The position numbers and the translations under genes were made by a program. 32,000 bases of DNA from contig CP006913.1 of NCBI GenBank assembly GCA_000503875.1, forward strand, positions 540,001 through 572,000, written 5' to 3'. Shown here in pieces: positions 292-32,000 of this stretch (the stretch's first letter is position 1; the number at the start of each line of letters is the position of its first letter). This stretch comes from Candidatus Saccharimonadota bacterium. Lineage in GTDB: Bacteria; Patescibacteriota; Gracilibacteria; Absconditabacterales; Absconditicoccaceae. Under the pieces are notes generated by a model that worked only from the letters and a program-made list of their open reading frames with translations, ran no database searches and was not told the origin of the DNA.

Positions 292-314
292 ATCTTATAT
301 ATAATAATAAATTA

Positions 315-2861
315 TTAATTAACCTTTATATTAATAGTTCCTTCAACTTCTGGTTTATCACTGTAAGATACTTTTGCTTTGATCGTATATGTTCAAGGAG
401 CATCATATGTTGTAGAAGTACTTATACATTCTCTTCCATTACATTCCAATGTCTTTCCATTTCAAAAGTCCCAATAAATTTTTTCTGGCAATCAGTTAAG
501 GGTTAAACTCATAGGAACTCTATCTCCTATTTTTGCTATCTGCCCAGGATGAGCATCCAAAGTTAAAGTAAGTTGAACCGTTTGTTTTTTTACAATAATA
601 GGATACGATAATACTATTTCTTTTTTCATTCATTTTCTTGTTGTCACTGTTACTTTTGGATTATAAGTTCCATTTTCTTTTGCTTGATCATAATTATAGG
701 TATGATTAACTACTGATTGAGATATATTTTTCTTTATTTCCCCATCTCCAAAATCCCAAGTAAAATAGACTATTTCATCACTTGGATCATTTAGTGTTGT
801 TGTTGAAGCATCCAAAGTAACAGTAAAAGGAGATATTCCCACAGAATCAGGCTTTACCAATAATTTACCAATAATAGCATCTCTATTTACACGAACAACA
901 ATATTTTTTTCTGTTTTAGCATTGGTTGTTGCGTCTTCAATAAGTATTTGTACACGATGCTCTTCTGGCGAGTCAATCGTAAATTCAAATATTTTATTAT
1001 CTGGAGACAATACAGGTACACCATCCAAGCTTACTTTTCTAAGAGCACGAGTATTATTTGGAACAACTGAAATTAAATTTAATTGAAGAACTGTTGGTAT
1101 TTCTGAAATAGTAATTATTTCATCACTAAAGGTATTTATTCCAGATTGTGTAAAAGCAGTGAATTTTGGAGAACCTGGTGATTTATATTGTAAGTCATAT
1201 GTTATTTGAAAATCTGTTGCTCCAACCTCAATATCTTCACTTTCACAAGATCATTTTTTACCCTCATCAGTAATAAATTCTACTTTAAGAGAATACATAC
1301 CAGCTGAAGGGAATTGGTAATCAAAAACTGGTTGTTTTGATTTTGTTGTTGCAAGCGTTTTCTTTCAATCAAGAACCAAATATTGATATTCTACGACACT
1401 AGCGTTAGCTTCCAAAAACTGAACATCAAAAGCATATGCTGTACCCTGAGTATTATTTGCAATAATTTCACAAACAGGAACATCAGACTGTTCTACTCTA
1501 AGTGGAAAAATATAAGCATACGCATTTAATCAAGGAAATCTAACTGAAACAGTATATAGTTTTGCTTGTTTATAAGTATAAGTAAATGTAGACGCATCTT
1601 GTTTATCTGCTTGACCATCACCATCAGCATCCCAAACTATTTTGTAGTCTTGTAAAGAAAAATCTCTAAATACACTTGATGCATCAAATCTGATTTTACT
1701 TGGAACTTTTCCAACAATCATTTCTGTATGAGCATCATTATAAGAAATAGATCATTCAACAGGATTTACTGCAATTTCTGATTCAAAAACCAATGATCAT
1801 GCAGGTATATCTTTTTGAAGTTTTTCTCCCGTTGGTGTATTTGTATAATCAACTTTCAACGTCATAGGATATTCTCCTTTCTTAAAATAGATACAGTTAC
1901 CATCAAACTGAGCAGTAGCCATATTCATAGGTACTGTTTGCCCATTTCCACAGTCCAAAATAACTTGATTAAAAGTGGACTGTCCAAAACTTGGCAAAAC
2001 TTGTCCATTAAAGTAATCAGTATTAAGCGCAAAAGAAATAAGCGAAGGAGCTATTAATTTGATAGTAGAAGTAGATACAAATCATGATCATTTTTCAGAA
2101 TCAAGGACATAGACACCAGTTACTATTAGTCTATTATTGTCTACTATATTATCTACAGAAATTTCTTTAATCATATTCAAAACCTTTGATCACAAAGCTA
2201 TTCATCCAATAAATAATACAAAACCAAAAAATAATCAGATTCAATATCATACTTTAGATTTATTTTTTACACTAACCAATCTATATCCGTTTATAATCAA
2301 CATTCACATAGCCAAGAAGACCAACAAACCAAAGAAAATAACAGAGAAAACTTGTAATAAATTTCTCGTTGTTTCTGGATCTAGACCAACACTAGTAAGT
2401 TGTGCTGGGTTATTAATAAGATAATAAAATATACCTACCAATCAACCAACCAAAACTATAAGTAAAACGAAACATCCTATCAAAAATCCCCTCATAGAAA
2501 GTTTAGATCATTGTGTATTTTGAACAACAGTTGGTTTGTTTATATGATTTGGATTATATCACAAAGCTTCCAAATTTTTGTTGTTTTGTTGATATTGAGC
2601 AGAAATTTGTTGAGCTTGCTGATATACTTGTTGTTTTTGAGCATCAGGCAATTGTGGATTTTGAAGCATCGCAGCCAACTGGTTATATTGTTGTTGTAAC
2701 AATTGTTGTTGCTGAAGTAATTGTTGAATTTGTTGTTGATTTAAAACAGCATCAACCTTTTGAGCAGCTTGTGTTGGTGTTTGTTGCGGAATTTGTTGCT
2801 GTCAAACATTAGCATTTTGCTGGGAATTTTGTCCTGCTTTCTGGAAAAATGGATCAACCAT
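315..2861 (-). CDS. Membrane protein, 848 aa: Gln-rich cytoplasmic N-terminus, three predicted TM helices, at least four extracellular PKD-type repeats
   Basis: Track ORFs 630..1028, 1530..1721 and 1797..1997 share one frame and are separated only by TGA. I read every codon: there is no TAA/TAG between TAA 315-317 and TAG 2907-2909, and the first ATG is at 2859-2861. About 40% Gln over about 90 aa (2560-2840). Hydrophobic helices lie at roughly 2190-2490. PKD signatures: WDADGDGQ (1611-1634), WDFGDGE (738-758), WDFGNG (456-473, where the first Gly is TGA at 462-464). Confidence 0.85.
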
Positions 2862-3004
2862 GGAAAAAAGAGAAATAAGAATAAAAATCCTACGAATGGT
2901 AACAATCTAAAAAAGATTTGCAATGCAAAATCATACAAAAGCACTCACGAAGAACCTTTTAACAAAAAAGTCAAGTCAAATAAACAAAAGGAACCAACCT
3001 ACCA

Positions 3005-3034
3005 TTGTATTTATTATCAAAAAACATATATATT
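3005..3034 (+). promoter_or_regulatory. Weak promoter candidate for the 3037-aa gene
   Basis: TTGTAT (3005-3010), an 18-nt spacer, then TATATT (3029-3034), about 35 nt upstream of ATG 3069. Such matches arise easily by chance in AT-rich DNA. Confidence 0.25.
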
Positions 3035-3068
3035 TTCAATAAGATTTTTTTACGCAGATATCATTGAT

Positions 3069-6000
3069 ATGTCAAAGAAGATCTATCATTACATCAAAAA
3101 ACCTTTTTCAATTAAACAATATATTTGACATTTATGTATCATACTCTTGGTAGGATTAGGATTTTTTTCTATAGTACAAACAATTTTTGCTCAGACACCA
3201 ACTTGATTTTCAGTAACAAACATCAAAAATACAGGTGATTATATCACTACAAAAAATTATGGAACTATTAATTTTTCATGAACAGGAATCCCCTCTCTTT
3301 TTCAACGATCTTGGAATAATGTTTGAAATAATCTTTCAACAATATTTTATGAACCAAAACCAAATGGAAATACAATTTATTTCAACAACTTCGACACTCC
3401 AGAAGTTTTGGAACAAAATCAAGTACCTTTAGCTGATTCGATTAGAGATTTTCCTAACGAAAATTTCACAAACGGTACAATATGAACTGGAAATAATTGA
3501 TGGAGCTATTTGTACAAATATCAAATTCAATCATGAGTAACAACATATATATATCCGTATTATTTTAATAGCGATATTTGTTTTGGAATATATCCACCTG
3601 CAACATCATCAGGAGAAATAGGTACGGATTTTCTTTATCCCACTGATGATATTTCGTGAACGGATTGACGAGAGTGTATACGAATTTGAGATTTTTTACC
3701 AACATATTCATCAGATATTGTATTAGTATCATATATTAGCCAAGGTCCTCACCCTTTAGGTGAGTGGGAATGTACAAGGACCTGTACCTCCATTGAAATA
3801 GAACAAACAAACACACAAAACATATTTAAGATGGTAAATCTGACTTTCAATCAGTGAGAATGAAATTCAGAATGAATGCGAACAATATGAACAGGACCAA
3901 TCACAGATTATAGTTTTGCAAATATAGGAAAAAAATATACCCATCCATGATCTGGTATGCTAGATACTTCATGATACAATAATATCCCAGTCATCCGACA
4001 ACGAACAAGTAATCTAAGTGGAAAAATTAAAATTATAAACAAGATTCAAGATGATGAAAACAATTGTTGAAATGGTATTATTTACAAAATATATACAGGA
4101 ATAATAGAAAATTGAGACACATTAACAGGAGTTAAAAACATAAAAACACATTATCTTCCAAATCTATCAGGCACAACTATAGAACGAAGTTGAAATATAA
4201 GCATAAATGAAAATATTTTCTTTGAAATAAATAATAGTTGAGATAATCAATGTGATGGTACTAGGAATTGGATTCAAATATATGATATTACTGACAATGC
4301 CGAAATAACTGGATGACCAAGTTATACAGAAAACGGAAACTACTGATGAGCATTGAATTTTACAGGAAGTCAACAATATAGTCTGGGTACAGGGATTAAT
4401 CAAAGTACAACAAGTGGAATTACTATAGCAGCGTGGATAAATACAAGAGATAAAAATCAATCACAAGGTATTATTACCAAGAAATTTTCTTATGGAATCG
4501 TTCTAAAACAATGAACCTTGCGAATTTCTCCAAGTACCTATTGGATGCGACATGATACAGGAATTCCTATTGATTCAAACACACGAACACATGTAGCGTG
4601 GACCTACGATGGATCTACTATGCGTGCGTATAAAAATGGTTCACAAATCCGAACGTATAATATAAACTGAGAATTAAACGGAAATGAAAGCGAAGTAATG
4701 ATTGGATATGACGAACTCAATCAACGATGACGAAATGGACAAATAGATGAATTTCGTATGTATGACACCACGTTCACTACAGGACAAATCGAAGAACTTT
4801 ACGAATCAAATCTAAAACTTGTAAATAGCTGAGTAAATTCTTCTTGGAATTTTATCATAAACAAAACAGGCTTAGTTGATGGAAAATATATATATACATG
4901 AATATATGATTGAAAATTAGAATTTTTAAGTACATATTGAGACATAAATAGCCGATATACAACAAATTTTAACGAAATTCCTGTTTGTATAAATTGTGAT
5001 GACGAATATTGTTCTACTTCTAACATAGAAGAATATATATGATATATATCATGATGAATAGAACTATGTAGATCAAATTATAATAATAACGATGATAACG
5101 TACCATTATACAATTTTTATGTATGATGATGAGATCACGAAATAGCTTGAGAATATACATGAATATATGATAATAAATATTCATATATGAATGATGCATT
5201 ATATAATGATATAAATATATGTAACACAGATTGTGAAGACACTGATACTTGTGTATGATCTGTTGATAATTGGACTAATATATGATCATTGCCTATATGT
5301 AAAGCAGGTATACCTTACCAAACATTAACAACAGAGTATTATAATTCATATAAAACAAATAAGTTACCATTTTATAGTACCTGATCAATCCTTGTAGATC
5401 AAAATTGACCAATTTTCATACAAAGAACAGGAGATATTGTTTATGAATCTCAACATCTAATGTTTACAGGAATTTGGTTTGATACAGGAATGAGCTGATA
5501 TATAACAACATGATTTGATCGATGACGATGATGGGATTTGAATTGACCTTGGGATATAGCAACCAATGGAGAAAATAGTATGGATTTTTGAACAGAGAAT
5601 GAACCAATAAATAAACAAATAAGAATAAGAGTAAAAGATCATGTTAGTAATCGATCATATCGAACATGAATGATTTTTCGATTAAATACTTGACCTGTTA
5701 TCAATGACATAAAACATACCTATACATGAATAGTGGAAGATACTATAACATTTATAGCTTCTGGTTATGATATATGAAATGAACCATTAAGATACCAACG
5801 ATATAATTGAACTTGATGTTTTTATAGTTCTCTTATACAAGGAGAAAGTTGATCAACATTTTCAAAAAACAGTCAAACAGAAACCTGAATCTATTTTTCT
5901 TATAAAATAATAGATACTCAATGATTATGATCTTGTTGGAGTATAACAGGACAACGAGAAACACCTGATGTTGATGCAATAGTACCATCAAATAACTCTT

Positions 6001-9000
6001 GATCATATGCTCGACAGACACCAATCACAGGAACTATTATTTTTTCTTGAAATATAGGGACATGTACAGGAGATAATGAATATACTTATTATATAGGTAC
6101 ATGAATAGGTAATGATTATTGTATTGTTCAAAATTGAGAAAATCAAATAGTTCTCTGACGATACGGAGTAAATAAGTATCTTACCTTGTTTTCACAAACA
6201 GGGACAAGAATAAATCCATATCTTATAAACGAAAATATACAACCATTTATTATTGAATTCCAAAATACTAATCTTACATGATTTGCACGATCAGTAAGTG
6301 GAACCAACAATAATAGAAAAGTTGAAAGTCAGATTTATAATTCATGATTAATAGGATTATATAATTTTGATAAAATTTTGCTTACCGATTCCGAAAAAGA
6401 CTTTTCAGCTATTCAATCCGGGAAAAATCGATCATATTGGAGAAGACCAAAAGGTACTGGAATATATGAATTGCTTCAATATTATGCTCCAAGTCAACAA
6501 CGAATTATTAGTACACCTATAGAAGAGTTTGATTGATTATTTATAGAAAAAAATGAATTAAATCCTGGTTATAATTATGGAGACACAATTCTTTGACGAA
6601 CAAGTCCTGTTAATTCTACGATAGAAATTCAATATACATTAACTGATGCCAACACTAGTTGTGGAGATGGAATTCAATATAAATTATTAAAAAACAATAC
6701 TACTACTGTATTAGCAACATGAGCTTTTGAATCAAAATCAGTAATTACACATATAGCTAGTTGAGACACTATATATCTTGTAGTAAATAGTTTAAATAAC
6801 AATGATTGTGATAATACAAATTATAATATTAAAATTTATCAGCTTCCAGAATCAAATCTCGGAACAAAATGAAATTATCAATGAACAAATTCATGAGCTC
6901 TTTATACCAGTGGAAAATATAATGGAGCATTAAGCTTCTCTGAAAATAGTTATATAACTATATGAACTGGTATACAATCAGGACATATGAGTATAAGTGC
7001 TCGAATATATAAATCATCATGAGATCAACAAACAATTATCCAAAAACGATGATCTTATGGAATGGTTATTTTCAATAATACGTTACAAGTAGCAAACCAA
7101 AATACTATTAGACGATATGATACTCAAATTTCATTACCAGATGATACACGAACACATATCGGTCGAAGTTATGATGGAATTACAATGAAAGTATATATAA
7201 ATGGTAAACAACAACGATCAAACACTATCGTAGGTACAATACCAAGCAACAATTATCCTATAAATATAGGATATAGTTTTTCTAATGGACTACGAAATGG
7301 ATTGATTGATGAAATGTATATATATAGCTATGCTGTTGATAGTGGTGTATTTGCATCATTATACAATCATAATCTCAATAGAATAGCTTGGGATAGATGG
7401 CAACGAAAAAGTAATCAAAGTTGATCAATATATGATTGAAGATATTCTTTCGAGACAAAAGTAAATTGAATACCAACAAATACATGAGAAATTATAAGAG
7501 ATTTTTCAGCTCCTCTATTTACAGGCTTTATTGGACTTACTGGACGAGAATCAACATGACTTATAATAACAGGTTTTTCATATGATAGTGGTTATTCTAT
7601 TTCTGGATATCAATTTAGATATAATTTAGAATGATTTCGAAGTGAGCGATCAAATATAAGTACAGGTAATTCTTTTATCATAAATAAACAAGATGAACCA
7701 ATTACATGATTGGTAGAAATAAAAATAAAAGATTTTTTCTGATATGAAACAATAGGAACAGGAATAATAGATCGAATAAATACAGGACCAATTATTGTTT
7801 GAGATAATGAATTTTATGGAAAATTAGGACAAAATATTGCTTTAATAGCTTCTTGATATGACACAAATTGATGACCATTGACCTATAAACGATATACCAA
7901 TAATGACTGTATTATAAGTAATCAGATTCTATGAAAAACTTGAAGTACATTAATAACATGAAGTACAATCACAGGAACTACTTATTTTTCTTATCAAATA
8001 TTTGACAAACAATTATCTGGAACATGTTTCAATATTTCTTGAACACGAACTGAAGATACAATGTTTATAGACAATACAAAATATTTTATTGGAGATGGAA
8101 GTTGATGAATAATAAGCTGAGAAATATTTCCTCAAGGAGTGAAAATCATAGAAAATGCAAAATATTGAGAATGTTTATTAACTGGTAATAAAGAAATTAT
8201 CAATTATATACCTAACACCTGATCAAAAGAAAATGATAGTTGTATCGTAGAATTAATACATGGTATATACACCGTAGCAGCTTTTAAAAACATTAATACA
8301 TGATTCATTTATTCACGAATACCCGAAATAACATGAATAACAAAAGATATTAAAAACATTACTTGGAAATGAATATTACAAACACCAGTTATTTCTTCAT
8401 TTACAGGCACTTGGAAATGAGAAACAGCACAATGATCTGGAATATTAACAAATAATATTAATATAAATACAAATAATTTAATTAGAAAATATAGTTTTGA
8501 TAGAATTGAAATAACTGATTCTACAAAAGATTTTTGATATTTTTCATGAGAACATGGACGAAAATACTTATGGAATAATGGTACAAGTGGTTGAGAATTA
8601 GTATTTAATCCAAGAACAAAAAACCGAATTATAAATGAACCTCTTCAAGATTATGAATATATATTTATAAATAATTGATCAGCATATCCTTGAGCAACAA
8701 AATATGGTGATATTATCTATGAACGAACAAGTAATGTTACAGGAAATATAAATATTGAAACTATGATAGATAATGCAAATACTTCATCATGTCCATCAAG
8801 TGATGGAATTATCTATCAAATCAAAAAAGAAACTACTACGTTATATACCAAGGACTATGAAAATACAAAAACTATTAGCAATGATATACAAACTACAGGG
8901 ACTTCTATAAGTTACGGAGATAAACTATATTTTATTATAAATTCAAAAGAAAATAATCAATGCGATAAGATAGATTTCAATGTGAAAATATATCAGAATG

Positions 9001-12000: not shown

Positions 12001-12182
12001 CAACAAGTACTGGTATTGATACCAAATGGATAAGCGCTCCTTATATAGCTGCAAACGGAAAAACATATAATCTATACAAAACTCTCGATGGTAAATATAG
12101 TGCTTATAATTTTATTTATAAAAAGACATTTAATTCTCTTACAGAATTAAAACAATATATTAACAAAAACAATCCTAGATAA
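3069..12182 (+). CDS. Giant secreted surface protein, 3037 aa: three LamG/concanavalin-A-like lectin domains plus Ig-like and Fn3-like repeats
   Basis: The frame is open from ATG 3069 to TAA 12180-12182. It was read codon by codon and only TGA interrupts it. It joins track ORFs 7062.., 8763.., 11001.. and 11964.., all in the same frame. The N-terminus MSKKIYHYIKKPFSIKQYIGHLCIILLVGLGFFSIVQTIFAQ looks like a Sec signal peptide. It has three LamG domains and four ASGYD Ig-like domains (5757, 7848, 10020, 10287). There is a CYYSMDVHGN motif (10989-11018) and an Fn3-like STDGGAGMLGYNYQI (11391-11435). Confidence 0.85.
4350..4809 (+). other. LamG (Laminin_G_3-like) lectin domain 1 of the 3037-aa protein
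   Basis: ALNFTGSQQYSL...ITIAAWIN...THVAWTYDGSTMRAYKNG...GQIDEFRMYDTTFTTGQIEELY. Confidence 0.75.
6924..7376 (+). other. LamG domain 2
   Basis: GALSFSENSYITI...MSISARIY...THIGRSYDGITMKVYINGK...GLIDEMYIYSYAVDSGVFASLY. Confidence 0.7.
9096..9539 (+). other. LamG domain 3
   Basis: QYLNIGTINKGTELTFSTWIK...NHLVRTYDGTTMIIYLNGN...GSLDELQVWNKTLSNSEIQNLY. Confidence 0.75.
12042..12179 (+). repeat. C-terminal NGKTY module, single copy, at the extreme C-terminus of the 3037-aa protein
   Basis: YIAANGKTYNLYKTLDGKYSAYNFIYKKTFNSLTELKQYINKNNPR followed by the stop. Confidence 0.7.
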
Positions 12183-12263
12183 TCATACTTACCCACCCAA
12201 AGGGAAAACCAAAACATATTAGAACATATTTTCAAAAAAAGACAAGAACGAAAACAGAAAAAA

Positions 12264-12342
12264 GCTTCATCAAAATAGCCAAAAAATAAAAATACTCTAT
12301 AATAGGTATATCTTTTATCTAGTATGGCTTTTTTGATGAAGC
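12264..12342 (+). promoter_or_regulatory. Long-range inverted repeat enclosing the start codon of the 1280-aa gene
   Basis: The left arm gcttcatcaaaatagcca (12264-12281) pairs with the right arm tggcttttttgatgaagc (12325-12342). That gives 12 bp, one T:T mismatch, then 5 bp, with a 43-nt AT-rich loop. The ATG is at 12324-12326, so its T and G and the next five codons lie in the stem. A TATAAT at 12298-12303 sits inside the loop. Confidence 0.5.
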
Positions 12343-15300
12343 AAGCAAAACGAAAGGAACATCTCAAAAAATTGATGTTTATTCAACATATTATATTCTG
12401 AGCTATAATCTGCCTTGGAATTGGTTTTATTATAACCAAAACATTGGCTAATGATTGAAGCGTATCTCGAAATCAATGAGAATATATCAATGATTATTTT
12501 TGGAGTCAAAATCCGTCAACATGAAATATTTTTGATGCTTTATATAGTGGCAATACAGCATATACAAAAAACATGAGTTGATATGATTTTCAAAATAATA
12601 CATGTAGCAAAAACAATATAAATATTGTTATATATACCTGATGAAACCAATATACTATATTACCTGAAATTATCACAGAAAATACAGTATTTATTCTTAA
12701 TTCATGAACTTACGTAAATACAATTTCTCAAATAACATTAAGCGGAGACTGTATAGCAATAATAGGAAGCTGAAAGGCTACTTTTTGAGGAAACATTAAA
12801 AGAAATACACAAACAAAATATACTATAATTGACAATATATTATATCGAAATAATAGTTTTTATAGTCCTACATATACAACACAGACATGAATAAATATTC
12901 AAGTTTTTGCTAATTCTACATCAAATTATTTGATAAGTGGATCATTTCTATCTTGATACATAACATGAACAATACAAAATCAAGCAACCAATATTCCTAT
13001 CACATTAGAACACCCAAACAATTCAAATACTATAGATATAGTTCTTTATGATACATATAATCATATAAATCACAGTAAAAAGACAATTATTAATGATAAC
13101 ATTATACCAATAATAACAGCATTTCTATCATGAACTGCAACACCAATAAATAATTGAGAAACATATAATACAGGAATCAGTTTATCTGTTAGTGATGATA
13201 ATCTTTCATGAATTACAAATAATTGATCTTCCCTTAATTGATCTTCTTTTGTTTTTACAAACCAATGATTATATAGTGTAATTGCTTGAGATAAAGCAGG
13301 TAATACAACTGGAATTTCTTTCGAAATAGATACTACTCCACCAAATATTATCAATCTTCAACCAGTTAGTGGTAGTAACGTAAATACATCACTTTTAACA
13401 TTATCTTGGACAACACAAGAGAATACTACAAAAATTAAATCTCAAAAATATTATCTTTATAGTGGAACTAACCTATTAGCATCGGGCATTGTACAAGCAG
13501 GAGTAACTAGTCAAACATTACCAAATATCAATAATGGAACATACAAACGACAAATTGTTTTAGAAGATACCGCTGGCAATATAGCAACTTGAGAATCTTC
13601 AAATATTAAATTTACCAAGATTCCTAGTATATTTATAACACCAACAGCACATTTATTAAGTAATAAACGATATACCAATACAGATCCTATTATTATACTG
13701 TCTGGTAATAAGAATTTTGATTATACAATAATTAAATCTGGTTTCTTATTGGGTAATAGCACTTATACATGAATAACAAAACAAGAAATTATTTCAATCA
13801 GCCCACAAACAGGAGATATTCTTATACAAATTGGATATACGACACAAGATTGAGAAATTGGAACAGGAAATTTCAGCTTTTTTATTGATACAACTCTTCC
13901 ACAGTTTACACTTAAACCACTAGGAAAAAGAACAAATAGTACTAATTCTATATTATATACACGAACAGGAAGTAAAACAGATGATAGAATTAAATATTAT
14001 AATTTTTTGATAAACAACTCTATAGTATATAGTGGAACTAACAAGTATTATACCAAGACATGATTACAAGTAAACGGAACATATATAGCTCAAGTAAGAG
14101 GAATTGATATAGCAGGTAATATGGGACAATCTATAGCAGAAACAACTATTATTGATCAGACGCCTCCTACAATTCACAATGTAGTAAATAATACATTATA
14201 CAAAGAATTACCCTACCCTATTATTAGAGATGAAAATAATGATCCTGTACAAGTAACTGTTAAGAAAAATTGAGTAACAATATTGTCAGGAATACAAAAT
14301 ACAGAATATGTAGTATGATTAGATGTAGGTGAAGCTGTATATATAATTACAACAACAGATATAGCAGGTAATACTACCTGATTAACATTTACTATAGATA
14401 CTACAGTTCCAACGGTAGGATTACTGACACCAATAAGTTGAACAATTATAACAGGTAATAATTCAATCGTGTTTACATGGACAGGAAACGATACAAATTT
14501 TTCTGGATTTGATTTTAGTTTACGAAGTAATGATTATTGATATTTCAGTACAGGAAGACAAACAACAAATAGAAATCTGACTATTAATAATCTTAATAAT
14601 GGTATTTATTATCGAAAAGTTATTGCTACAGACAAAGCAGGAAATACAACAACATCATCTACACAGCATTTTACTATAAGTGTTCCTCTCACATGACAAA
14701 TAAGTATCAGTTGAGCAGTAACTGTAGCATATATACAATATGTAAATTCAGAAAATATAAAATTAATAACAAACATTAATAAACCTACAGTATTAACAAT
14801 TACCGGAAATATAGTTTGAGAATATGGATCTCAAATAATTAACAAAGAAATTTGAGCAGGATCACAAACAACATCAATACAATTAACAGCAGGTGAAGGA
14901 AGAAAAGATTTTTATATAACTCTTCAAGACTATATAGATAATAATATATTAAGTTATTTTCAAAGTGTTGTTGTAGATAAAACATTACCAAGTAAACCAA
15001 TATTAACGACTATAAATAATCAAATATACACAGGTACAGTAACATTAAATTGGCCAGTATCAACAGATGATTGATCTGGAATAAAAGGATATAGTTATCA
15101 AATTACACAAAACAATCAAATAAAAAAAGCAGGAACAACATCTTCTGCATCAATGGTAATACAAAATATGGAATTATGAAACCAAGGGTCTTTTACGCTA
15201 AAAATAAAAGCTATCGATAATGTTAATAATGAAAGTGATCGATCAGAAAATGCTGTATTTAGCTACACAGGAATTCCCGATACTTCACCAGATAGTTTCA

Positions 15301-16166
15301 CTTTTTCTAGACAAACAAATGTAGAAATAGAAAAAACATATAAATCAAATACAATAACAATAACTTGATTAAGTCTAAATACAACTGTTATGGCAACTAT
15401 TGATGAATGAACATTGTTTGTAAATGGAATCGATGTAAATGAACGGGCTCTAGTACAAAATGGAGATGTTATTTATATAGAATTAGAATCAAGTGATGAA
15501 TATGATGAAGTAACAACATCAACATTAACTATAAACGATAAGACAGCTACATTTAAATTAACTACCGAAAATAATGATGATGACGATGATGATGACGACG
15601 ATGATAATGATGATGATTATAATTTATCAGATAATGAAATTGATGAATTAGAACAAACCTACGAATTAATAAGTATTCTTGATAGTAGTCTAAAATTAAA
15701 ATTTAAAGAAATGTTGGAGGATAAAATTGATGAATTGGAAAAAGAAGATGCAGATGAAGATGAAATAGAAAAATTACGTTATATTTATGATCGTGTTGTC
15801 GAAGATATTAATTGAACAGAAGATATTATCTATACTGCTCCAAATTGAAAAACGTATATTATAGTGTACAAAGAATGAGTTTGATATTCTTCTATTAACT
15901 TTAGTACAGCAAATAAAACTAAATATTTTTCAACATTAACGGAAATCAAAACTTTTATAGATAAAAACAATACTAAGTTATCATTAAATTATACTGTTGA
16001 TAACTCTCGAAGTACTGCGACATATAATGCACCAAATGGTAAAACATACAAAATATTTAGAACAACAAATGGTCAATATGGCTCGTATAATATGGTAATA
16101 CCAAAATTATTTAATACATTACAAGAATTAAAAAATCATATTAATAAAAACAATCCAAAAAAGTAA
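12324..16166 (+). CDS. Large secreted surface protein, 1280 aa: beta-helix cap, repeated Ig-like D-x-AGN domains, Fn3-like domain, poly-Asp/acidic helical linker, two C-terminal NGKTY modules
   Basis: ATG 12324 to TAA 16164-16166 in the same frame as track ORF 15414..15815; only TGA interrupts. The N-terminus has a basic stretch plus a hydrophobic anchor (MAFLMKQAKRKEHLKKLMFIQHIIFGAIICLGIGFII). Repeated motifs are typical of bacterial surface Ig-like domains: AGDKAGNTTGISFEIDTTPP, LEDTAGNIATG, IDIAGNMGQS..IDQTPPT, TTDIAGNTTGLTFTIDTTVPT, ATDKAGNTTT, and WPVSTDDGSGIKGYSYQI. Confidence 0.85.
15576..15617 (+). repeat. Poly-Asp tract (D10-N-D3) encoded by GAT/GAC
   Basis: Read directly as gat gat gac gat gat gat gac gac gat gat aat gat gat gat, in frame in the 1280-aa gene. 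Confidence 0.95.
15825..16163 (+). repeat. Two tandem NGKTY modules at the C-terminus of the 1280-aa protein
   Basis: Copy a (15825-15971) is IIYTAPNGKTYIIVYKEGVGYSSINFSTANKTKYFSTLTEIKTFIDKNN. Copy b (16023-16163) is YNAPNGKTYKIFRTTNGQYGSYNMVIPKLFNTLQELKNHINKNNPKK followed by the stop. Confidence 0.7.
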
Positions 16167-16182
16167 TTTATAATTGATCACT

Positions 16183-17322
16183 TTAAGAAATTAATTCATA
16201 GATATTCTCTATCTTTTCTACGGTTTCATCTCGATGAAAAGTTTTAACTGGCAAGATTTCAACATCTTGCTGGTTTTCTTTTATTGTTAGAATTGCATCC
16301 AAAATTTGTTTAGAAGATCATGGTTTAATAAATATAGTAGTACCTCAAACAACTTCAGGTAAAGAAGCAATATATGTTGTAATAAGTGGTTTTTTCATAG
16401 CAACTGTTTCTGTATGTACAGATCAAAATCATTCAGAAAGTGATGGAGCTACAACAATATCACAAGAAGCCACCATATCACGTAAATCATTTTTATCAAC
16501 TCATTGAAAAATTTGTATCTGACGAGCAAATCAAAATTTTTCTAAAAAACGCAAACGATTAAGCGTTTTTGTTTTTCTTTTGGAATCTATTATATTAAAA
16601 ACAAACAATACAGTTGGATCATATTTTATCATTTGAGGAATACAGTCAATTAGTGAGTCCAAACCTTTAGATTTACCTGCGTGACCATAATACAAAACAA
16701 TAAATCTTCAATTCCAAGAATATTCTTTTTTCCAATCGGTAATTTTTTGTTCATCTACATATTCTGGATTCCAAAAATCATAATCTACCCCATTATAAAT
16801 AACATGTAATTTTTCATCGGAAATACCATATAATAACCTCAATGAATTCATTGTATATTTAGAAACACAGTGATATATAGTATACGGCATAATAAAAAGC
16901 ATTTTTTCCAAAAATAGATATACTCTTCCCCAAAACCAACCTTTATATAAAATCCAAAGTTTCCCAAATACTTCATGAACTGTTAAAACTACTTTTTTAT
17001 GAAAAAAATATCATAATATACTAGCAGGAAACGCACCAACATAAGTACTTGCATGAATAAGATCAAATTTTTGTTGTTTCAAAAGAAAGAATCCTTTGAT
17101 TAAAGAAAAAAATAGAAAAGAAAATCTTCAAAAACCTACTCTATATATTTCCAGATTATTTAAATGTTCATATGTTTTAAGTCTTTTATCAAAATGACTG
17201 GTGATAAGTGTTATATGATATCATTTTGCTCTTAATCTTTGGATAATTTGTTCAAAAACAGTTTCTACACCTCAACAATGAGGTAAATAATAGTCCAAAA
17301 ATAATAATATGCTCTTTTTCAT
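16183..17322 (-). CDS. GT4-family (GT-B fold) glycosyltransferase, 379 aa
   Basis: ATG (complement of 17320-17322) to TAA 16183-16185. The sequence contains ...VAPSLSEGFGSVHTETVAMKKPLITT..., which is the E-x7-E signature region of retaining GT4 enzymes. Both Gly of EGFG are TGA (16423-16425 and 16429-16431). The N-terminal MKKSILLFLDYYLPHCGGVETV resembles the GT4 N-terminal Gly-rich loop. Confidence 0.85.
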
Positions 17323-17435
17323 GAGTATTTTTTACAAAATATCAAAACAAAAGGATTGTACAGATATAGAAACTAGTTTCAAGTGATTATACTAAGGGCA
17401 AAACACAGAAAAACACAAATTTTATCCTCCAAAAT

Positions 17436-17464
17436 TTGACAAAATTCATATTTCTAGATACAAT
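17436..17464 (+). promoter_or_regulatory. Sigma-70-type promoter candidate for the CHAP hydrolase gene
   Basis: TTGACA (17436-17441), an exact 17-nt spacer, then TACAAT (17459-17464), 29 nt upstream of ATG 17493. It sits in the 170-bp divergent intergenic region shared with the GT4 gene. On the other strand a TATAAT (complement of 17386-17391) lies 64 nt upstream of the GT4 start. Confidence 0.55.
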
Positions 17465-17492
17465 TATATAAGATTTATTTCTTGCAAAGAGA

Positions 17493-18800
17493 ATGAAACA
17501 AAAAATAAAGGTAACAACAGCAAAATTATTTAATCATCTCCACAAAGTCAAAAAAAGACATGTAGAGAGATTTTTGCATACTTGGACACATACCCATCAT
17601 GCTATGATTCATATGGGTGAATTACTTATTGTAGGAACAATTTGATTTTCTAGTTTATTATTTGCCAATTATAATAATTCATATGAGCATCTACACAGAA
17701 ACACAGCTCAAGAGATAGTTCAGTCATTAAGTAAAGCTATAGAACAACAAAGCCAAAAAACAAACGAAAGTAAGGTTATCTCCGTTTGGGAAATGGATGG
17801 AAATGTAAATAATACCTTTTCTGTATGATATTGTACCTACGGAGCTGCACGCATTTCTCCAGAATTTTTCCCTTATTCAGAAGACAAAATGTCCCAAGAA
17901 AGAACCCGAGGTGGAAATGCTATAGATCGATGTGAAAATGCTGAAAAAGCTGGATTTAAAATTTGATCAAAACCAAGTATATGATCGCTCATTGTTTATA
18001 AAAAAGTTTGAAATGATATAACTTTCTGACACGTAGGTAAAGTTATGTATTACAATAAATCAAAGGAATCATTAATTATAAGAGATATGAATTGGATTGC
18101 TAAATCTATTATGAGTGATCGTCGAGAAGATTCAAAAAACGAAAATATTAAATGTTATATTTATCCAGGGAAAACTACAGTAGATGAAACAATAAACACC
18201 ATAACTGATAAATTTAACGTAAATACAGGTAACGTAGTAATTACTGGTAATTCAAACACAGGTAATATTATAAATACTACCCCAAATAAACCTGAATCAA
18301 ATTGAAATACGACAACGACTACTACTACAACTACTACTACAACTACTACAAACAATACAACACATGACGTTGCTCCAATAGAACCAACAATACAAGAGCC
18401 AGAAAACACTACTTTTTATGAACAATTAGATACATTAAACGAAAATGAAATAGTAATAATACCTAATGATAGTTTTTCTGATATTAGCAAACATTTTCTT
18501 TCACAATATGAAATGAAAATAACTATTATTAAAAAAGATCAAATAACTGTAGGTGAAAATATATTATTAAATATAACTATTATCAACAAAGACACTAAAG
18601 AACCATATCAATGAATTCTTCCGTTTATATTCAATAGTATCAGTCAAAACAATATTTTAGAAGGATCACTTGAAACATTACAACTTATGCATAATAAAGA
18701 AAATATAATTAATTTTAAAGCAAAAGAAAAAGGAACCAGTACTATTCTTCTAACCATTGATGATCAAAAAATAGTAACGATTCCTATTACAATAAACTAG
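17493..18800 (+). CDS. Membrane-anchored CHAP-domain peptidoglycan hydrolase with poly-Thr linker and C-terminal beta-rich domain, 435 aa
   Basis: ATG 17493 to TAG 18798-18800. There is a TM segment MIHMGELLIVGTIGFSSLLFA. CHAP-like catalytic context: GYCTYGAARISPEFF (Cys codon 17832-17834), then GNAIDRCENAEKAGFKIGSKPSIGSLIVY, then FGHVGKV (His codon 18030-18032). A run of 14 consecutive Thr codons lies at 18309-18350. Confidence 0.8.
18309..18350 (+). repeat. Poly-Thr tract (14 consecutive ACN codons) in the CHAP protein linker
   Basis: Read directly as acg aca acg act act act aca act act act aca act act aca, in frame. Confidence 0.95.
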
Positions 18801-24292: not shown

Positions 24293-24304
24293 AATTTTTT
24301 TTAG

Positions 24305-30500: not shown

Positions 30501-32000
30501 AAATTATTTACAACATTATATTGTGACCTATTATTAAAACCAATTCAATACCCATTATTATATAATTGTGCATTATTTATAACTCAAGAATTACTACCAT
30601 CTATATAAATTCCATTATTGGTATTATTAAATGATTGAATATTATTTAATGTAGTATAGTTAGAATTATATATCCTAATTCATCAATAAGAACCATTTAT
30701 ACTATTTTGAAATAACTGTACATTATCCACAAAATTATAATGAGAAATATATATATGAATACCTTCTTGAGAATTATTATATGATTGACTATTAGAAATT
30801 GTGGTATAATTTACACCATTATTAAAATAAATTCATCTATAATAATTATAGGTTTCAACATCATTAATAATACCAAAGCTAGATCAATTAATAAAAGAGA
30901 TACCAGCTGATATTGGTGTATGAAATCAAGAAGAGCCATTAGATTTACCATCAAATTTAATTCCATCTATCAAAATATTGTTTAAATTATCAATAGATAA
31001 GGCTGAAGTCGATCAGGTAGTATTATAGAAAGTAACAAGTCCGGATCAAATCAAAGCAGTACAATGTCATAAAAAATTTATAACTCATGTATTTAAATAA
31101 TCTCCTGAAGATAATATATATAAGGTATTTCATTGTAAATTTTGAGGGACTGTTCCAAGTCATGGAGAAAGATATTTGAGCATCATTTTATTAATATCAC
31201 AACTATTCGCTAACCAATTATATCAAGAGAAATAATATTTCTGTATAATATCTTTTTCAGACTGAATGGTGACAGAATCCAAATATATTATCGTATTATT
31301 AAATGTTTTATATATCATACCTCCGGTAGATAAATAGAGGTTTATAGATTTTTCACCATATCATGGTGTTAAAGTAACATTAAAAGTTCCAGTACCATTT
31401 AATATTCAATTCAAAGATCCTCACACAATATCACCTGAAATAGTATATGAACCGGTAAACGCTAAAACGACAACCAATTCCAAGTTTCTTGTTGTTGTAT
31501 ATGTGTCACTATTGATAAAAAAGTCCGCTCACGGAAGAATACTAGTTGGTTCTGCAATAAATTTAGTAGAATCAAAATCTAAAGAAGATAAAACCAAGTT
31601 AGTAGTTCACGAGTACATTACCGGTTGAATTTGTTTCGAAATAGATCATCAATAAATATTAGTTCAAGTTAATGATATATTACTTCTATATCATCTATAA
31701 TCACAATTAGATATTAAATTCAAAAAAGAATTTTGATTTCGATCCAAAATATTAACAGCTAATCAACAATTCATCTTTCATGATCAGGCTATAATTTCTC
31801 AAACATTTCGTCATAATCAAAGATTTTCTAATCATCATGAGATGAAAGATGATGTATTATCTAACTTTACATTACCATAGCTATTATTGAAAAAGCTATT
31901 TTTACCATAAAATTTTGATCCTGTCGAAAAAGTACTAGAAATAGCATATCACATATTATTATATATATTTACATTATTTATTATTGTTCAAGTAGAACGA
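27518..32000 (-). CDS. Giant secreted surface protein, at least 1493 aa (N-terminus beyond window): right-handed beta-helix (PbH1) repeats, LamG domain, Ig-like domains, distinct C-terminal beta domain
   Basis: I read every codon of the minus-strand frame from 32000 down to TAA 27518-27520. There is no TAA/TAG, only TGA. The frame contains track ORFs 27518..27916 and 30119..30310. It includes PbH1-like repeats, a canonical LamG C-terminal motif GRIDEVRIWNRALSSGEIETLY, and MRFSNDNENRSEWLSYTGTYEWTLTGDYGTKIVY. Confidence 0.85.
29012..29527 (-). other. LamG domain of the third giant protein
   Basis: GAFSFDGISNKIRIP...FTYSVWVN...WYHIVATRDQAAGKLYLWINGI...GRIDEVRIWNRALSSGEIETLYNSN. This is the closest of the four copies to the canonical Laminin_G_3 C-terminal motif. 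Confidence 0.8.
30455..31010 (-). repeat. Right-handed parallel beta-helix (PbH1-type) repeats, period about 22-23 aa
   Basis: Consecutive turns: ...ISFINGSSFGIINDVETYNYYRGIYFNNGVNYTTISNSQSYNNSQEGIHIYISHYNFVDNVQLFQNSINGSYGGIRIYNSNYTTLNNIQSFNNTNNGIYIDGSNSGVINNAQLYNNGYGIGFNNRSQYNVVNNLECYNNTINAIYVDN. The recurring pattern is N-x-GI-x-I...N-x-I-x-N. Confidence 0.7.

What the first reader, a model, noticed from the sequence alone, without database searches (positions are those of the whole stretch)
315..18800. Surface-protein island: candidate host-attachment / attack apparatus
Six adjacent genes all encode envelope or extracellular functions:
- a PKD-repeat membrane protein (315-2861, minus strand), divergently arranged with
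- a 3037-aa signal-peptide protein carrying three LamG lectin domains (3069-12182)
- a 1280-aa Ig-like/beta-helix protein (12324-16166)
- a GT4 glycosyltransferase (16183-17322, minus strand)
- a membrane-anchored CHAP cell-wall hydrolase (17493-18800)

A third giant protein lies at 27518-32000. Together the three giants occupy about 54% of the window. Code-25 CPR bacteria are small-genome episymbionts or predators, so this investment in lectin and adhesin modules is notable. A peptidoglycan-cleaving enzyme beside them suggests a contact-dependent host-recognition and wall-breaching system. The GT4 could glycosylate the Thr/Ser-rich linkers. The functional link is inference; the sequence shows only the domain content and the adjacency.
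Basis: partly seen in the sequence, partly recalled or inferred. Interest (0 to 1): 0.8.

Follow-up and report, generated by a model that had tools for sequence, protein, structure and literature searches.

The report
Conserved surface-fibre gene cluster in SR1 bacteria
The genes are real and four of them form a deeply conserved cell-envelope cluster in code-25 SR1 (Absconditabacteria) bacteria, but the 3037-aa lectin-domain giant is a fast-evolving, lineage-specific insertion, and the idea that giant surface proteins mediate host attachment in this group is already published.

Summary
Observation confirmed. The window uses TGA=Gly (code 25), and all five listed genes exist at the stated coordinates with the stated domains. 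CHAP in g5 is invisible to a direct Pfam scan; a family profile, an invariant Cys/His pair and a predicted fold recover it.

Interpretation partly supported. Across 27 related loci, four genes stay adjacent in four different flanking contexts:
- g1: PKD membrane protein
- g3: ~1300-aa fibre protein
- g4: GT4 glycosyltransferase
- g5: membrane-tethered CHAP hydrolase

The LamG giant g2 and the third giant g12 are lineage-specific insertions into this backbone. g2 is about 42% identical where housekeeping genes are about 85%, and it ranges from 2877 to 4701 aa.

New here: g2 and g3 share a constant C-terminal cassette. It ends in 1-3 copies of a basic 48-aa 'APNGK...KNNP' module with no Pfam or PDB match. 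The module occurs in only 208 of 1.84 billion protein clusters and only in genes at these two positions.

Best reading: a fibre-display cluster with a constant base and variable heads. The CHAP domain is tethered close to the cell's own membrane, so it more likely remodels the cell's own wall than the host's. Nothing specific supports GT4 glycosylation of the linkers. Giant adhesin-like surface proteins are already reported for Vampirococcus and Strigamonas.

The parts
315..2861 (-). g1: conserved 848-aa membrane protein. Cytoplasmic Gln-rich helical N-terminus (aa 1-122; 2496-2861), three TM helices (aa 123-232; 2166-2495), and an ectodomain of about 7 consecutive Ig-like/PKD beta-sandwiches (aa 233-848; 318-2165).
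   Evidence: Pfam PKD E 1.9e-22. Hydropathy shows 3 TM segments. The AF2 model of the 78%-identical ortholog P0067 has pLDDT 83. Foldseek returns only generic multi-Ig rods. The family has 84 clusters at 41-87% identity, all SR1-type. g1 is present in all loci with sufficient flank.
3069..12182 (+). g2: 3037-aa hypervariable giant. Signal-like N-terminus (3069-3194). Three ~700-aa super-repeats (3891-6128, 6330-8258, 8460-10448), each with a Cys-containing beta-sandwich, a LamG domain (about 4386-4838, 6951-7403, 9102-9521) and Ig-like units. Constant C-terminal cassette (11136-12179).
   Evidence: Laminin_G_3 x3, E 2.4e-49. Internal repeat map. Orthologs occur only in L001, L004, L010 and L022, with lengths 2877, 3873 and 4701 aa. 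g2 is about 42% identical where housekeeping genes are 82-87%.
12036..12179 (+). Single terminal 'APNGK...KNNP' module of g2 (aa 2990-3037). Basic: net +6, pI 9.7.
   Evidence: Module alignment, HMM hit, charge.
12324..16166 (+). g3: 1280-aa fibre protein. Signal-like N-terminus (12324-12449), beta-helix-like region (about 12561-13103), Ig-like repeats (about 13257-14903), constant C-terminal cassette (14799-16163).
   Evidence: Big_13 marginal. N-terminal similarity to g12. Internal repeats. Orthologs in all loci range from 907 to 1964 aa; the C-terminal half is conserved to the last residue while the N-terminal and central part varies.
15579..15824 (+). Acidic linker of g3 (aa 1086-1167): poly-Asp run plus a Glu-rich helix, net charge -29.
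   Evidence: Sequence and charge. Tandem GAT/GAC codon repeat at 15574-15623. The 90 aa preceding the module are acidic in all orthologs checked.
15825..16163 (+). Two tandem 'APNGK...KNNP' modules of g3 (15825-15986 and 16017-16163). Net +11, pI 9.9.
   Evidence: Census: 208 of 1.84e9 representative proteins carry the module, almost always at the extreme C-terminus, in 1-3 copies. No Pfam match and no PDB match.
16183..17322 (-). g4: cytoplasmic GT4 glycosyltransferase (379 aa), convergent with g3 and divergent from g5.
   Evidence: Glyco_transf_4 E 1.1e-25 and Glycos_transf_1 E 7.5e-20. NCBIfam gives only generic GT4 hits, far below every equivalog cut-off. No TM segment. 51-80% identical in all loci.
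17493..18800 (+). g5: membrane-tethered CHAP hydrolase (435 aa). Basic cytoplasmic tail (17493-17615, net +8), TM segment (17616-17672), CHAP domain (about 17775-18176) with Cys114 (17832-17834), His180 (18030-18032) and Asp198 (18084-18086), Thr/Asn-rich disordered linker (18177-18437), C-terminal Ig-like beta-sandwich (18438-18797).
   Evidence: (PcsB CHAP end, E 1e-10). Thr-codon tandem repeat at 18312-18351.
27518..32000 (-). g12: separate, N-terminally truncated giant (at least 1493 aa) with beta-helix repeats, one LamG domain and a C-terminal beta-sandwich. It is not part of the conserved cluster and lacks the APNGK module.
   Evidence: Pfam Laminin_G_3 E 1e-26, Beta_helix E 1.2e-6, weak WxL/GH123_N. 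No module. No counterpart after UvrD in L002, L004, L006 or L008.

Best explanation
This is a clade-specific cell-envelope cluster that builds and displays surface fibres. It has a constant base and exchangeable heads.

SHOWN.
- Four separately transcribed genes stay adjacent throughout SR1/Absconditabacteria: g1, a 3-TM protein with a rod of about 7 Ig/PKD domains; g3, a secreted fibre; g4, a cytoplasmic GT4; and g5, a membrane-tethered CHAP hydrolase with an invariant Cys/His pair.
- The proteins at the g3 position, and at g2 in this lineage, have variable N-terminal bodies.
- They share a constant C-terminal cassette: a ~265-aa beta-rich region, an acidic linker, and 1-3 basic 48-aa 'APNGK...KNNP' modules.
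- g2 is a later insertion between g1 and g3. It carries the same cassette under three LamG-containing super-repeats and evolves much faster than its neighbours.

INFERRED.
- The N-terminal hydrophobic segments of g2 and g3 are cleaved signal peptides.
- The basic terminal modules hold the fibres on the cell non-covalently. They bind either an anionic wall glycopolymer (possibly made with g4) or the acidic ectodomain of g1, which would act as the membrane platform.
- g5 locally cuts the bacterium's own peptidoglycan, so that fibres can be inserted or the wall remodelled.
- The variable distal parts, above all the LamG arrays of g2, are the ligand-binding surfaces and are candidate host-recognition adhesins.
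For: SYNTENY. g1-g3-g4-g5 are adjacent in L002/L012, L006, L007, L008, L015, L017, L025 and L027. Beyond g5 there are four different flanking contexts: PK-ProRS, an M23/giant block, ion channel-RuvC-DHFR, and RecA. Breakpoints therefore fall at the cluster's edges, not inside it.

CASSETTE. g2 2690-3037 matches g3 826-1280 (E 9e-38). g3 orthologs are conserved to the last residue at the C-terminus and vary in the N-terminal and central part.

MODULE.
- It is x2 in all g3 orthologs and x1 in g2 orthologs.
- It is absent from g1, g5, g8, g12 and the other giants in the loci.
- 208 of 1.84e9 representative clusters carry it, at the extreme C-terminus.
- 55 of the 63 long carriers share the pre-C region, but few share the N-terminal body.
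- The modules are basic (mean pI 9.2, about +4 per unit) and follow an acidic linker in otherwise acidic proteins. The g1 ectodomain has net charge -19.

DIVERGENCE RATES. Where housekeeping genes are 82-87% identical, g4 is 75-79%, g3 52-60%, g5 49-65% and g2 about 42%. In L022, g1 is 78% identical while the giant is 41%. The giant's length varies from 2877 to 4701 aa.

CHAP.. Topology: tail net +8, one TM segment, a short spacer, then CHAP, then the linker and Ig-like domain.

CONTEXT. The family has a Gram-positive-type wall, complete peptidoglycan synthesis and a fibrous surface (PMC13059738, PMC8080830).
Against: - There is no experimental or expression data.
- The four genes are not an operon. 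The promoter and terminator scans are no better than chance, so co-regulation is unproven.
- At the edge of the family the cluster is incomplete. L023 has g1 plus a module-bearing protein but no adjacent GT4 or CHAP. L024 has g1 and only a doubtful GT4.
- Part of the synteny is plain genome collinearity, because g6-g11 are also syntenic in many loci.
- The module's fold and ligand are unknown.
- If the N-terminal hydrophobic segments are uncleaved anchors, the polarity reverses, and the constant cassette becomes the distal tip rather than the base.
- The argument that CHAP acts on the cell's own wall is topological inference only.
Confidence: 0.45

Rival explanations
1. One reading: a contact-dependent system for host recognition and wall breaching. 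The lectin/adhesin giants bind the host, the adjacent CHAP enzyme cleaves host peptidoglycan, and the GT4 glycosylates the Thr/Ser-rich linkers.
For: - Adhesin-type domains (LamG, PKD, Ig-like) sit on secreted or membrane proteins.
- Adjacency of g1, g3, g4 and g5 is conserved.
- The CHAP catalytic residues are invariant.
- g2 evolves fast.
- The literature proposes these roles for giant proteins and peptidoglycan hydrolases in V. lugosii (PMC8080830).
- g5 carries a run of 14 Thr in its linker.
Against: - The LamG giant is absent from most relatives that keep the cluster.
- The CHAP domain is tethered about 35-40 residues from the cell's own membrane, and the long linker comes after it.
- Known hosts are Gram-negative, so their wall lies behind an outer membrane (PMC8080830, PMC13059738).
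- The GT4 is cytoplasmic and generic. There is no GtfA-like match and no accessory Sec genes nearby.
- The hydrolases proposed for host attack in V. lugosii are described as secreted, whereas g5 is predicted to be membrane-tethered.
Confidence: 0.15
2. There is no dedicated system. These are independent envelope housekeeping genes: a division or growth autolysin of the PcsB type, a GT4 for a wall polymer or glycolipid, and structural surface or S-layer-type proteins. Their order is preserved mainly by slow genome rearrangement in this clade.
For: - The neighbouring housekeeping block g6-g11 is also syntenic in many loci, and g1's other neighbour is GatC-like.
- The genes form four transcription units in mixed orientation.
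- g5's only NCBIfam hit is the CHAP end of PcsB, a division hydrolase.
- An M23 peptidase sits next to g1 in L002 and L008.
- L023 keeps g1 and g3 without g4 and g5.
Against: - Four different flanking contexts surround an unbroken four-gene unit. So rearrangements do occur, but they spare the cluster.
- The module-bearing gene lies next to g1 in every locus examined where g1's upstream flank is available, including distant L023.
- g2 was inserted exactly between g1 and g3 and carries g3's cassette.
Confidence: 0.25
3. Reversed polarity. The N-terminal hydrophobic segments are uncleaved membrane anchors, the variable bodies are stalks of different length, and the constant basic C-terminal cassette is the distal working tip. 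It would bind a conserved anionic target, such as host LPS or the surface of sister cells in stacked or paired SR1 cells.
For: - g2 and g3 each have a single N-terminal hydrophobic segment after a long basic n-region.
- The module is basic and strongly conserved, as expected for a binding site with a constant ligand.
- Stacking and pairing of cells is reported for V. lugosii and A. praedator (PMC12428579).
Against: - Ala at position -1 (IFA|QT in g2, TLA|ND in g3) is compatible with signal peptidase cleavage. This is read directly from the sequence; no predictor was available.
- LamG arrays are typical distal ligand-binding elements, and they evolve fastest.
- Terminal tandem basic repeats are the usual format of wall-anchoring domains such as SLH, CWB2 and LysM (general knowledge).
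Confidence: 0.12

Closest known systems
Giant cell-surface proteins of cultured Absconditicoccaceae (Vampirococcus lugosii, Absconditicoccus praedator, Strigamonas methylophilicida)
   Same: Same clade and genetic code. Proteins of more than 1400-4000 aa with TM segments or signal peptides and adhesion-type domains (PKD, FN3, concanavalin-A/LamG superfamily). They are proposed to mediate host recognition and attachment and to form the fibrous surface (PMC8080830, PMC13059738).
   Different: In the passages I read (keyword look-ups in the main text, not full reads), those papers list domains per protein. I found no description of the conserved g1-g3-g4-g5 cluster, the constant C-terminal cassette and APNGK module, or the distinction between a conserved backbone and inserted hypervariable LamG giants. 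I could not check whether the three cultured genomes carry the cluster.
Non-covalent wall-anchoring repeat systems of Gram-positive bacteria: SLH domains with pyruvylated secondary cell-wall polymer; CWB2 with PSII in C. difficile; WxL/Csc clusters in lactobacilli and enterococci
   Same: In all of these a terminal constant domain, usually 2-3 tandem units of about 45-90 aa, carries variable functional bodies. The anchoring partner and glycosyltransferases are often encoded nearby. In Csc clusters a membrane-anchored partner protein is encoded alongside. (General knowledge.)
   Different: The APNGK module matches no Pfam or PDB family, so it is not SLH, CWB2, LysM or WxL. Its ligand is unknown. 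g2 carries only one unit. The partner here would be a 3-TM, 7-Ig protein with no counterpart in those systems.
PcsB and other CHAP (peptidase C51) peptidoglycan hydrolases
   Same: Papain-like CHAP fold with catalytic Cys and His. The best sequence matches are PcsB, the phage phi812 hub CHAP and staphylococcal CHAP domains.
   Different: g5 scores 41 bits against a PcsB equivalog cut-off of 450. It has no long coiled-coil domain. It is TM-tethered and carries a long Thr/Asn-rich linker plus a C-terminal Ig-like domain. No FtsEX genes lie nearby in the window.
Serine-rich-repeat adhesin glycosylation (the GT4 enzyme GtfA/GtfB with the accessory Sec system)
   Same: (General knowledge.)
   Different: g4 has no GtfA-type NCBIfam match among its 24 hits. 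No SecA2/SecY2/Asp genes lie in the window. The fibres g2 and g3 have only short Thr/Ser stretches; the long Thr run is in g5.
GhpA grappling-hook protein of predatory Aureispira
   Same: It is the top Foldseek hit for the g1 ectodomain (E 7.5e-17): a long rod of Ig-like beta-sandwiches on the surface of a contact-dependent predator.
   Different: TM-scores are 0.14-0.2 and identity is about 12%. The match reflects 'many Ig domains in a row', and human LILRB3, CEA and complement C3 match equally well. There is no evidence of homology or of hook formation.

Membership tests
CHAP / peptidase C51 (PF05257), for g5 | Significant match to the family model | tested here: met
   g5 alone gets no Pfam hit even at E<=10, and phmmer against PDB CHAP domains gives only E 0.16. 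However, at least 14 full-length orthologs carry a precomputed PF05257 hit and one is named a CHAP protein by NCBI. The family profile hits solved CHAP/C51 domains at E 1.8e-7 to 4e-4, and NCBIfam matches the CHAP end of PcsB at E 1e-10.
CHAP / peptidase C51 (PF05257), for g5 | Catalytic Cys and His (plus a polar third residue) conserved | tested here: met
   Cys114 and His180 are invariant in 46 sequences, and Asp198 is at least 90% conserved. They align with the Cys, His and Glu of PcsB and 2lrj.
CHAP / peptidase C51 (PF05257), for g5 | Papain-like alpha+beta fold | tested here: met
   The AF2 model of ortholog P0023 has block-mean pLDDT of 64-95 over the CHAP region. Foldseek matches 9eum (phi812 CHAP, TMt 0.54) and 5t1q (S. 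aureus amidase, rmsd 2.6-3.7 A).
CHAP / peptidase C51 (PF05257), for g5 | Peptidoglycan amidase or endopeptidase activity, and which wall it cuts (own or host) | not testable with these tools
   This needs enzyme assays on SR1 and host sacculi.
PcsB equivalog (NF046104), for g5 | Full-length match above the curated cut-off (coiled-coil plus CHAP) | tested here: not met
   41.4 bits against a cut-off of 450. Only the C-terminal CHAP part aligns.
Laminin_G_3 / ConA-like (PF13385), for g2 and g12 | Match above the Pfam gathering score | tested here: met
   g2 scores 167.8 bits with 3 stretches (cut-off 27.6). g12 scores 94.4 bits. Carbohydrate binding itself was not tested.
PKD domain (PF00801/PF18911), for g1 | Match above the gathering score; beta-sandwich fold | tested here: met
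   79.5 and 73.2 bits with 2 stretches. The model shows about 7 consecutive beta-sandwiches.
GT4 glycosyltransferase (GT-B fold), for g4 | N-terminal Glyco_transf_4 plus C-terminal Glycos_transf_1 domains | tested here: met
   E 1.1e-25 and 7.5e-20, both above their cut-offs.
   None of the 24 NCBIfam hits is a GtfA model, and all lie far below equivalog cut-offs. No SecA2/SecY2-like genes are in the window.
Known wall-anchoring or sorting domains (SLH, CWB2, LysM, WxL, LPXTG, PEP-CTERM), for the C-terminal module of g2 and g3 | Sequence match to the family, or a C-terminal hydrophobic sorting helix | tested here: not met
   All 27 units scanned against Pfam at E<=10 gave only scattered single chance hits. 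The profile against the PDB gave nothing below E 2. The C-terminus is hydrophilic and basic (KNNPKK) with no hydrophobic helix.
Functionally linked gene cluster (g1-g3-g4-g5) | Adjacency conserved beyond general collinearity | tested here: met
   The cluster is intact in four different flanking contexts. Exceptions occur at the edge of the family, in L023 and L024.
Functionally linked gene cluster (g1-g3-g4-g5) | Co-expression or physical interaction of the products | not testable with these tools
   No expression data were available, and no multimer prediction could be run.

The most novel reading that the evidence does not exclude
The 'APNGK...KNNP' module and the 3-TM/7-Ig protein g1 form a previously undescribed surface-display system specific to Absconditabacteria. 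A constant base (g1, the cassette, and a wall modified by GT4 and CHAP) would present interchangeable, rapidly evolving heads. The inserted LamG giants would then be the determinants of host range in these obligate predators.
Probability: 0.3. Interest if true: 0.7.

Novelty: new variant of a known kind. Interest (0 to 1): 0.45.

Why it matters
The molecular basis of the predator-prey junction in epibiotic predators, CPR predators included, is explicitly described as unknown (PMC12428579).

Absconditicoccaceae share a core of only about 236 genes across three genera (PMC13059738). An envelope cluster conserved across the SR1-type genomes sampled here is therefore a good candidate for a core part of their surface architecture.

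Separating a conserved base (g1, g3 cassette, g4, g5) from inserted hypervariable LamG giants yields concrete, testable candidates:
- The module and g1 are candidates for anchoring.
- g2-type giants are candidates for host specificity.

There is also a practical point. Almost all database copies of these proteins are mistranslated (TGA read as Trp) or shattered (TGA read as stop). That hides such families from routine annotation.

Tried and rejected
- Direct Pfam scan of g5 at E<=10 found no CHAP. The domain was recovered only through the family profile and the predicted structure.
I worked around this with database orthologs (P0023, P0067) and with TGA-free stretches of the window.
- The word-indexed search with the module profile returned only 36 candidates, all short fragments. 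It is not a fair census, so I replaced it with the exhaustive HMMER search.
- Foldseek of the g1 model gave only generic multi-Ig matches with TM 0.1-0.2, including GhpA. I rejected these as evidence of homology.
- The C-terminal domain of g5 matched the S-layer protein SbsC, intimin and filamin equally. It is a generic Ig-like fold and gives no functional assignment.
- The promoter and terminator scan was no better than shuffled sequence. Operon structure is left open.
- Rfam and tRNA scans of the window found nothing.
- The weak GT4-conflict Pfam hit on g4 (23.7 bits, below the cut-off of 26) was ignored, because the generic GT4 models score far higher.
- At first I took the small gene and the membrane protein beyond g1 for further cluster members. 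I rejected this: the small gene is GatC-like with GatB nearby, and the membrane protein is a thioredoxin-like/DsbD_TM fusion that is not always present.

Full report
GENETIC CODE AND GENE SET. Table 11 leaves only 12 ORFs of at least 100 aa in 32 kb. Reading TGA as sense raises coverage by ORFs of at least 150 aa from 2.8 kb to 36 kb. TGA lies at the invariant glycines of SGGVDS (MnmA), GSGKT (UvrD) and DTKGPEIR (pyruvate kinase). In alignments with database homologs, the same conserved columns alternate between G (GGN codons) and 'W' (TGA translated with code 4). The window therefore uses code 25, TGA = Gly. TGA supplies 14-67% of Gly codons depending on the gene. The nearest relatives are MAGs labelled Candidatus Absconditabacteria or SR1.

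Twelve genes plus two small ORFs fill the window:
- a GatC-like ORF, 13-294(-)
- g1, 315-2861(-)
- g2, 3069-12182(+)
- g3, 12324-16166(+)
- g4, 16183-17322(-)
- g5, 17493-18800(+)
- pyruvate kinase, ProRS, an unknown secreted protein (g8), MnmA, a 66-aa Lys/Ala-repeat ORF, a CoA-binding protein and a UvrD helicase, all on the minus strand
- g12, 27518-32000(-), which runs off the window

CHECKING THE OBSERVATION. Pfam confirms PKD in g1 (E 1.9e-22), three Laminin_G_3 domains in g2 (E 2.4e-49), a marginal Big_13 in g3 (28.4 vs 27 bits), GT4 in g4, and Beta_helix plus Laminin_G_3 in g12. The three giants occupy 54.5% of the window.

The one claim that did not pass a direct test is CHAP in g5: there is no Pfam hit even at E<=10. 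It is nevertheless correct, on four grounds:
- The best PDB sequence matches are CHAP domains, with the Cys and His aligned.
- 65 full-length orthologs exist. Many carry PF05257 and one is named a CHAP protein by NCBI.
- Cys114 and His180 are invariant and Asp198 nearly so.
- The family profile hits solved CHAP/C51 domains at E 1.8e-7, NCBIfam matches the CHAP end of PcsB at E 1e-10, and an AF2 model of ortholog P0023 superposes on the phage phi812 CHAP domain and a S. aureus amidase.

Minor corrections: five genes are listed, not six, and the next gene beyond g1 is GatC-like and housekeeping. That assignment is weak (Pfam E 0.17, GatB nearby in relatives).

THE SYNTENY TEST. I fetched 27 related loci through g5 and g1 orthologs and a scan of species-representative genomes. 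I re-called ORFs with code 25 and searched them with the window's proteins.

Result 1: g1(-), g3(+), g4(-) and g5(+) are adjacent in every locus with enough flank: L002/L012, L006, L007, L008, L015, L017, L025 and L027. L014 shows g3-g4-g5 up to its contig end.

Result 2: the region beyond g5 has four unrelated forms:
- PK-ProRS-g8-MnmA-CoA-binding-UvrD
- a block with an M23-like peptidase and another 1300-1800-aa protein
- ion channel-RuvC-DHFR
- RecA
The far side of g1 also varies. Rearrangements therefore happen, but they spare the four-gene unit. This is more than the general collinearity that also preserves g6-g11.

Result 3: g2 is present only in the closest relatives (L001, L004, L010, L022), and it always lies between g1 and g3 where both flanks are visible. 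g12 has no counterpart after UvrD in L002, L004, L006 or L008. Both LamG giants are thus lineage-specific insertions into a conserved backbone.

Result 4: at the edge of the family the cluster is incomplete. L023 has g1 plus a g3-like protein only, and L024 has g1 and a doubtful GT4.

ANATOMY OF THE PROTEINS.
- g1. The AF2 model of the 78%-identical ortholog has pLDDT 83. It shows a cytoplasmic helical hairpin (Gln-rich in the window), three TM helices whose sequence is strongly conserved, and about 600 aa of consecutive Ig/PKD beta-sandwiches. Foldseek finds only generic multi-Ig rods (GhpA of Aureispira, LILRB3, CEA, C3) at TM 0.1-0.2. This gives a fold class and nothing more.
- g2. It has a signal-like N-terminus and three ~700-aa super-repeats, each with a Cys-containing beta-sandwich, a LamG domain and Ig-like units. 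Its C-terminal 350 aa are homologous to g3 826-1280 (E 9e-38).
- g3. It has a signal-like N-terminus, a beta-helix-like region similar to g12's, Ig-like repeats and the same C-terminal cassette.
- g5. It has a basic tail (net +8), one moderately hydrophobic TM segment, a short helical spacer, CHAP, an ~85-aa disordered Thr/Asn-rich linker (including a run of 14 Thr) and a confident Ig-like beta-sandwich.
- g4. It has no TM segment or signal sequence and matches only generic GT4 models.

THE CONSTANT CASSETTE AND A NEW TERMINAL MODULE. g3 orthologs range from 907 to 1964 aa. Their C-terminal half is conserved to the very last residue, while the N-terminal and central parts differ. The cassette ends in a 48-aa unit with consensus xxYxAPNGKxYxxxxTxxGxYxSxNFxxxKYFxTLxxxKxxIxxNNPK. 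The unit is present twice in every g3 ortholog, three times in L023, and once in every g2 ortholog.

It is absent from g1, g5, g8, g12 and every other giant in the loci. It matches no Pfam family and no solved structure.

An exhaustive HMMER search of 1.84 billion representative proteins finds 208 carriers (128 at E<=1e-10). The module is almost always at the extreme C-terminus, in 1-3 copies. Many of the hits are short stubs produced by table-11 gene calling. Of the 63 carriers of at least 600 aa, 55 share the ~265-aa region that precedes the linker. Few share g3's N-terminal parts, and only 3 are g2-like.

The units are basic (mean pI 9.2, about +4 each). They follow an acidic linker (net -29 in g3: poly-Asp plus a Glu-rich helix) in proteins that are otherwise acidic. 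The g1 ectodomain has net charge -19.

EVOLUTIONARY RATES. Against relatives whose housekeeping proteins are 82-87% identical, g4 is 75-79%, g3 52-60%, g8 57-59%, g5 49-65% and g2 about 42%. In L022, g1 is 78% identical but the adjacent giant is 41% and 4701 aa long, against 3037 aa here, 2877 aa in L001 and 3873 aa in L004. g2 is therefore hypervariable in both sequence and repeat number, next to a conserved partner.

INTERPRETATION. What is shown:
- a four-gene envelope cluster conserved across SR1
- a fibre family with a constant C-terminal cassette and variable bodies, encoded only next to g1
- a catalytically intact, membrane-tethered CHAP
- LamG giants as recent, fast-evolving insertions

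What I infer (confidence about 0.45):
- The cassette's basic terminal modules hold the fibres on the cell, on an anionic wall polymer (perhaps made with g4) or on g1.
- g5 opens or remodels the cell's own wall.
- The variable heads, especially g2's LamG arrays, face outward as candidate host-recognition adhesins.

The argument that g5 acts on the cell's own wall is topological. CHAP sits within about 35-40 residues of the membrane, while the long linker and Ig-like domain follow it. The clade has a Gram-positive-type wall, and its known hosts are Gram-negative (PMC13059738, PMC8080830).

Rivals:
- unrelated envelope housekeeping genes held together by inertia (0.25)
- reversed polarity, with the constant cassette as the distal tip (0.12)

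COMPARISON WITH WHAT IS KNOWN. The general theme is published. V. lugosii's ten longest proteins (1392-4163 aa) are membrane proteins with PKD and adhesion domains, 'probably' used for host recognition, and its secreted peptidoglycan hydrolases are proposed to attack the host wall (PMC8080830). [quoted passage not shown] A 2025 review states that the molecular basis of epibiotic junctions remains unknown (PMC12428579).

My literature searches turned up no description of the g1-g3-g4-g5 cluster, the cassette and module, or the split between backbone and insertions. The library is limited to open-access papers and preprints.

In mechanism, the closest analogues are non-covalent wall-anchoring repeat systems (SLH, CWB2, WxL/Csc clusters). 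The module fails every membership test for them, so I file this as a new variant of a known kind.

LIMITS.
- No expression or localisation data were available.
- No signal-peptide predictor was available.
- The promoter scan was uninformative.
- Several tools rejected code-25 translations.
- I could not verify that the three cultured species carry the cluster.

Noticed in passing
window 13-294 (-): A 93-aa ORF (MLNKEEFLRLQKLAAISLSDQE...) is conserved next to g1 in L002, L006, L008, L022, L023 and L025. Pfam gives only weak GatC/GatF hits (E 0.17 and 0.12), but GatB lies nearby in L022 and L025. It is probably GatC, so g1's outer neighbour is a housekeeping gene.
   Followed up: partly
window 21912-23183 (-) (g8): A 423-aa protein with an N-terminal hydrophobic anchor and a Ser/Thr/Gln/Pro-rich region. 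It has two copies of a ~50-aa four-Cys unit (CxTxWGE...C...C...C at 22443-22592 and 22068-22217). It has no Pfam or NCBIfam match, is conserved at this position in about 10 related loci, and evolves fast (37-59% identity). It is an uncharacterised extracytoplasmic protein embedded in the housekeeping block.
   Followed up: partly
window 24357-24557 (-), inside the 24293-24703 gap: A 66-aa Lys/Ala/Pro-repeat ORF (MAVKKPVAKKAPAKKPVAKK...) lies over a 27/54-bp tandem DNA repeat at 24377-24548. It has a sub-threshold match to the histone-H1-like protein HC2 (E 1.3e-4). In L023 an HC2-like segment is fused to ribosomal protein L27. It may be a nucleoid-associated basic protein.
   Followed up: partly
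window 27518-32000 (-) (g12): The third giant carries duplicated beta-helix segments, one LamG domain and a C-terminal beta-sandwich with weak WxL / GH123_N-like matches (E 0.017 and 0.003). It lacks the APNGK module and has no counterpart after UvrD in four relatives. It is a second, independent giant-gene insertion.
   Followed up: partly
database homologs P0001-P0149; alignment A1: Nearly all public copies of these proteins were translated with code 4 (Trp at TGA) or broken into stubs by code 11. Only a few NCBI entries use Gly. This degrades domain annotation, which is one reason Pfam CHAP hits are patchy, and it inflates the counts of short 'hypothetical proteins'.
   Followed up: yes
L002 1014-2084, L008 1025-2047; L013/L014/L015/L018 downstream of g5: M23 peptidase genes recur close to the cluster. 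In two relatives one lies between the GatC-like gene and g1. In context B an M23-like gene lies next to another 1300-1800-aa protein. A second peptidoglycan hydrolase class therefore tends to sit near these surface genes.
   Followed up: no
L006 613-1725, L022 12861-14105, L025 12911-14023: A 370-414-aa membrane protein with an N-terminal thioredoxin-like CxxC motif (FFYGNGCPHC) fused to a DsbD_TM/SfLAP-like domain follows the GatC-like gene in several relatives. It is a candidate extracytoplasmic disulfide oxidoreductase. That may be relevant to the conserved Cys pairs in g1, g5 and g8. The window ends before this position.
   Followed up: no
L025 3198-4638 vs L006 10001-11320: In one assembly of the same lineage the g5 ortholog is split into two overlapping ORFs, while it is intact (439 aa) in another sample. 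This is either an assembly frameshift or population-level pseudogenisation.
   Followed up: no
L027 12877-18759 and 19422-22355: In this relative, additional giants (1960 aa, and more than 1269 aa with LVIVD/Big_13) are inserted on the other side of g1, between g1 and the GatC-like gene. Both flanks of g1 therefore appear to be hot spots for giant-gene insertion.
   Followed up: no
window 17436-17464 (+): A near-consensus sigma-70-type match (TTGACA-17-TACAAT, 11/12) lies about 29 nt upstream of the g5 start, in the g4/g5 divergent intergenic region. Promoter-like matches overall are not enriched over shuffled sequence, so this remains only a candidate.
   Followed up: no
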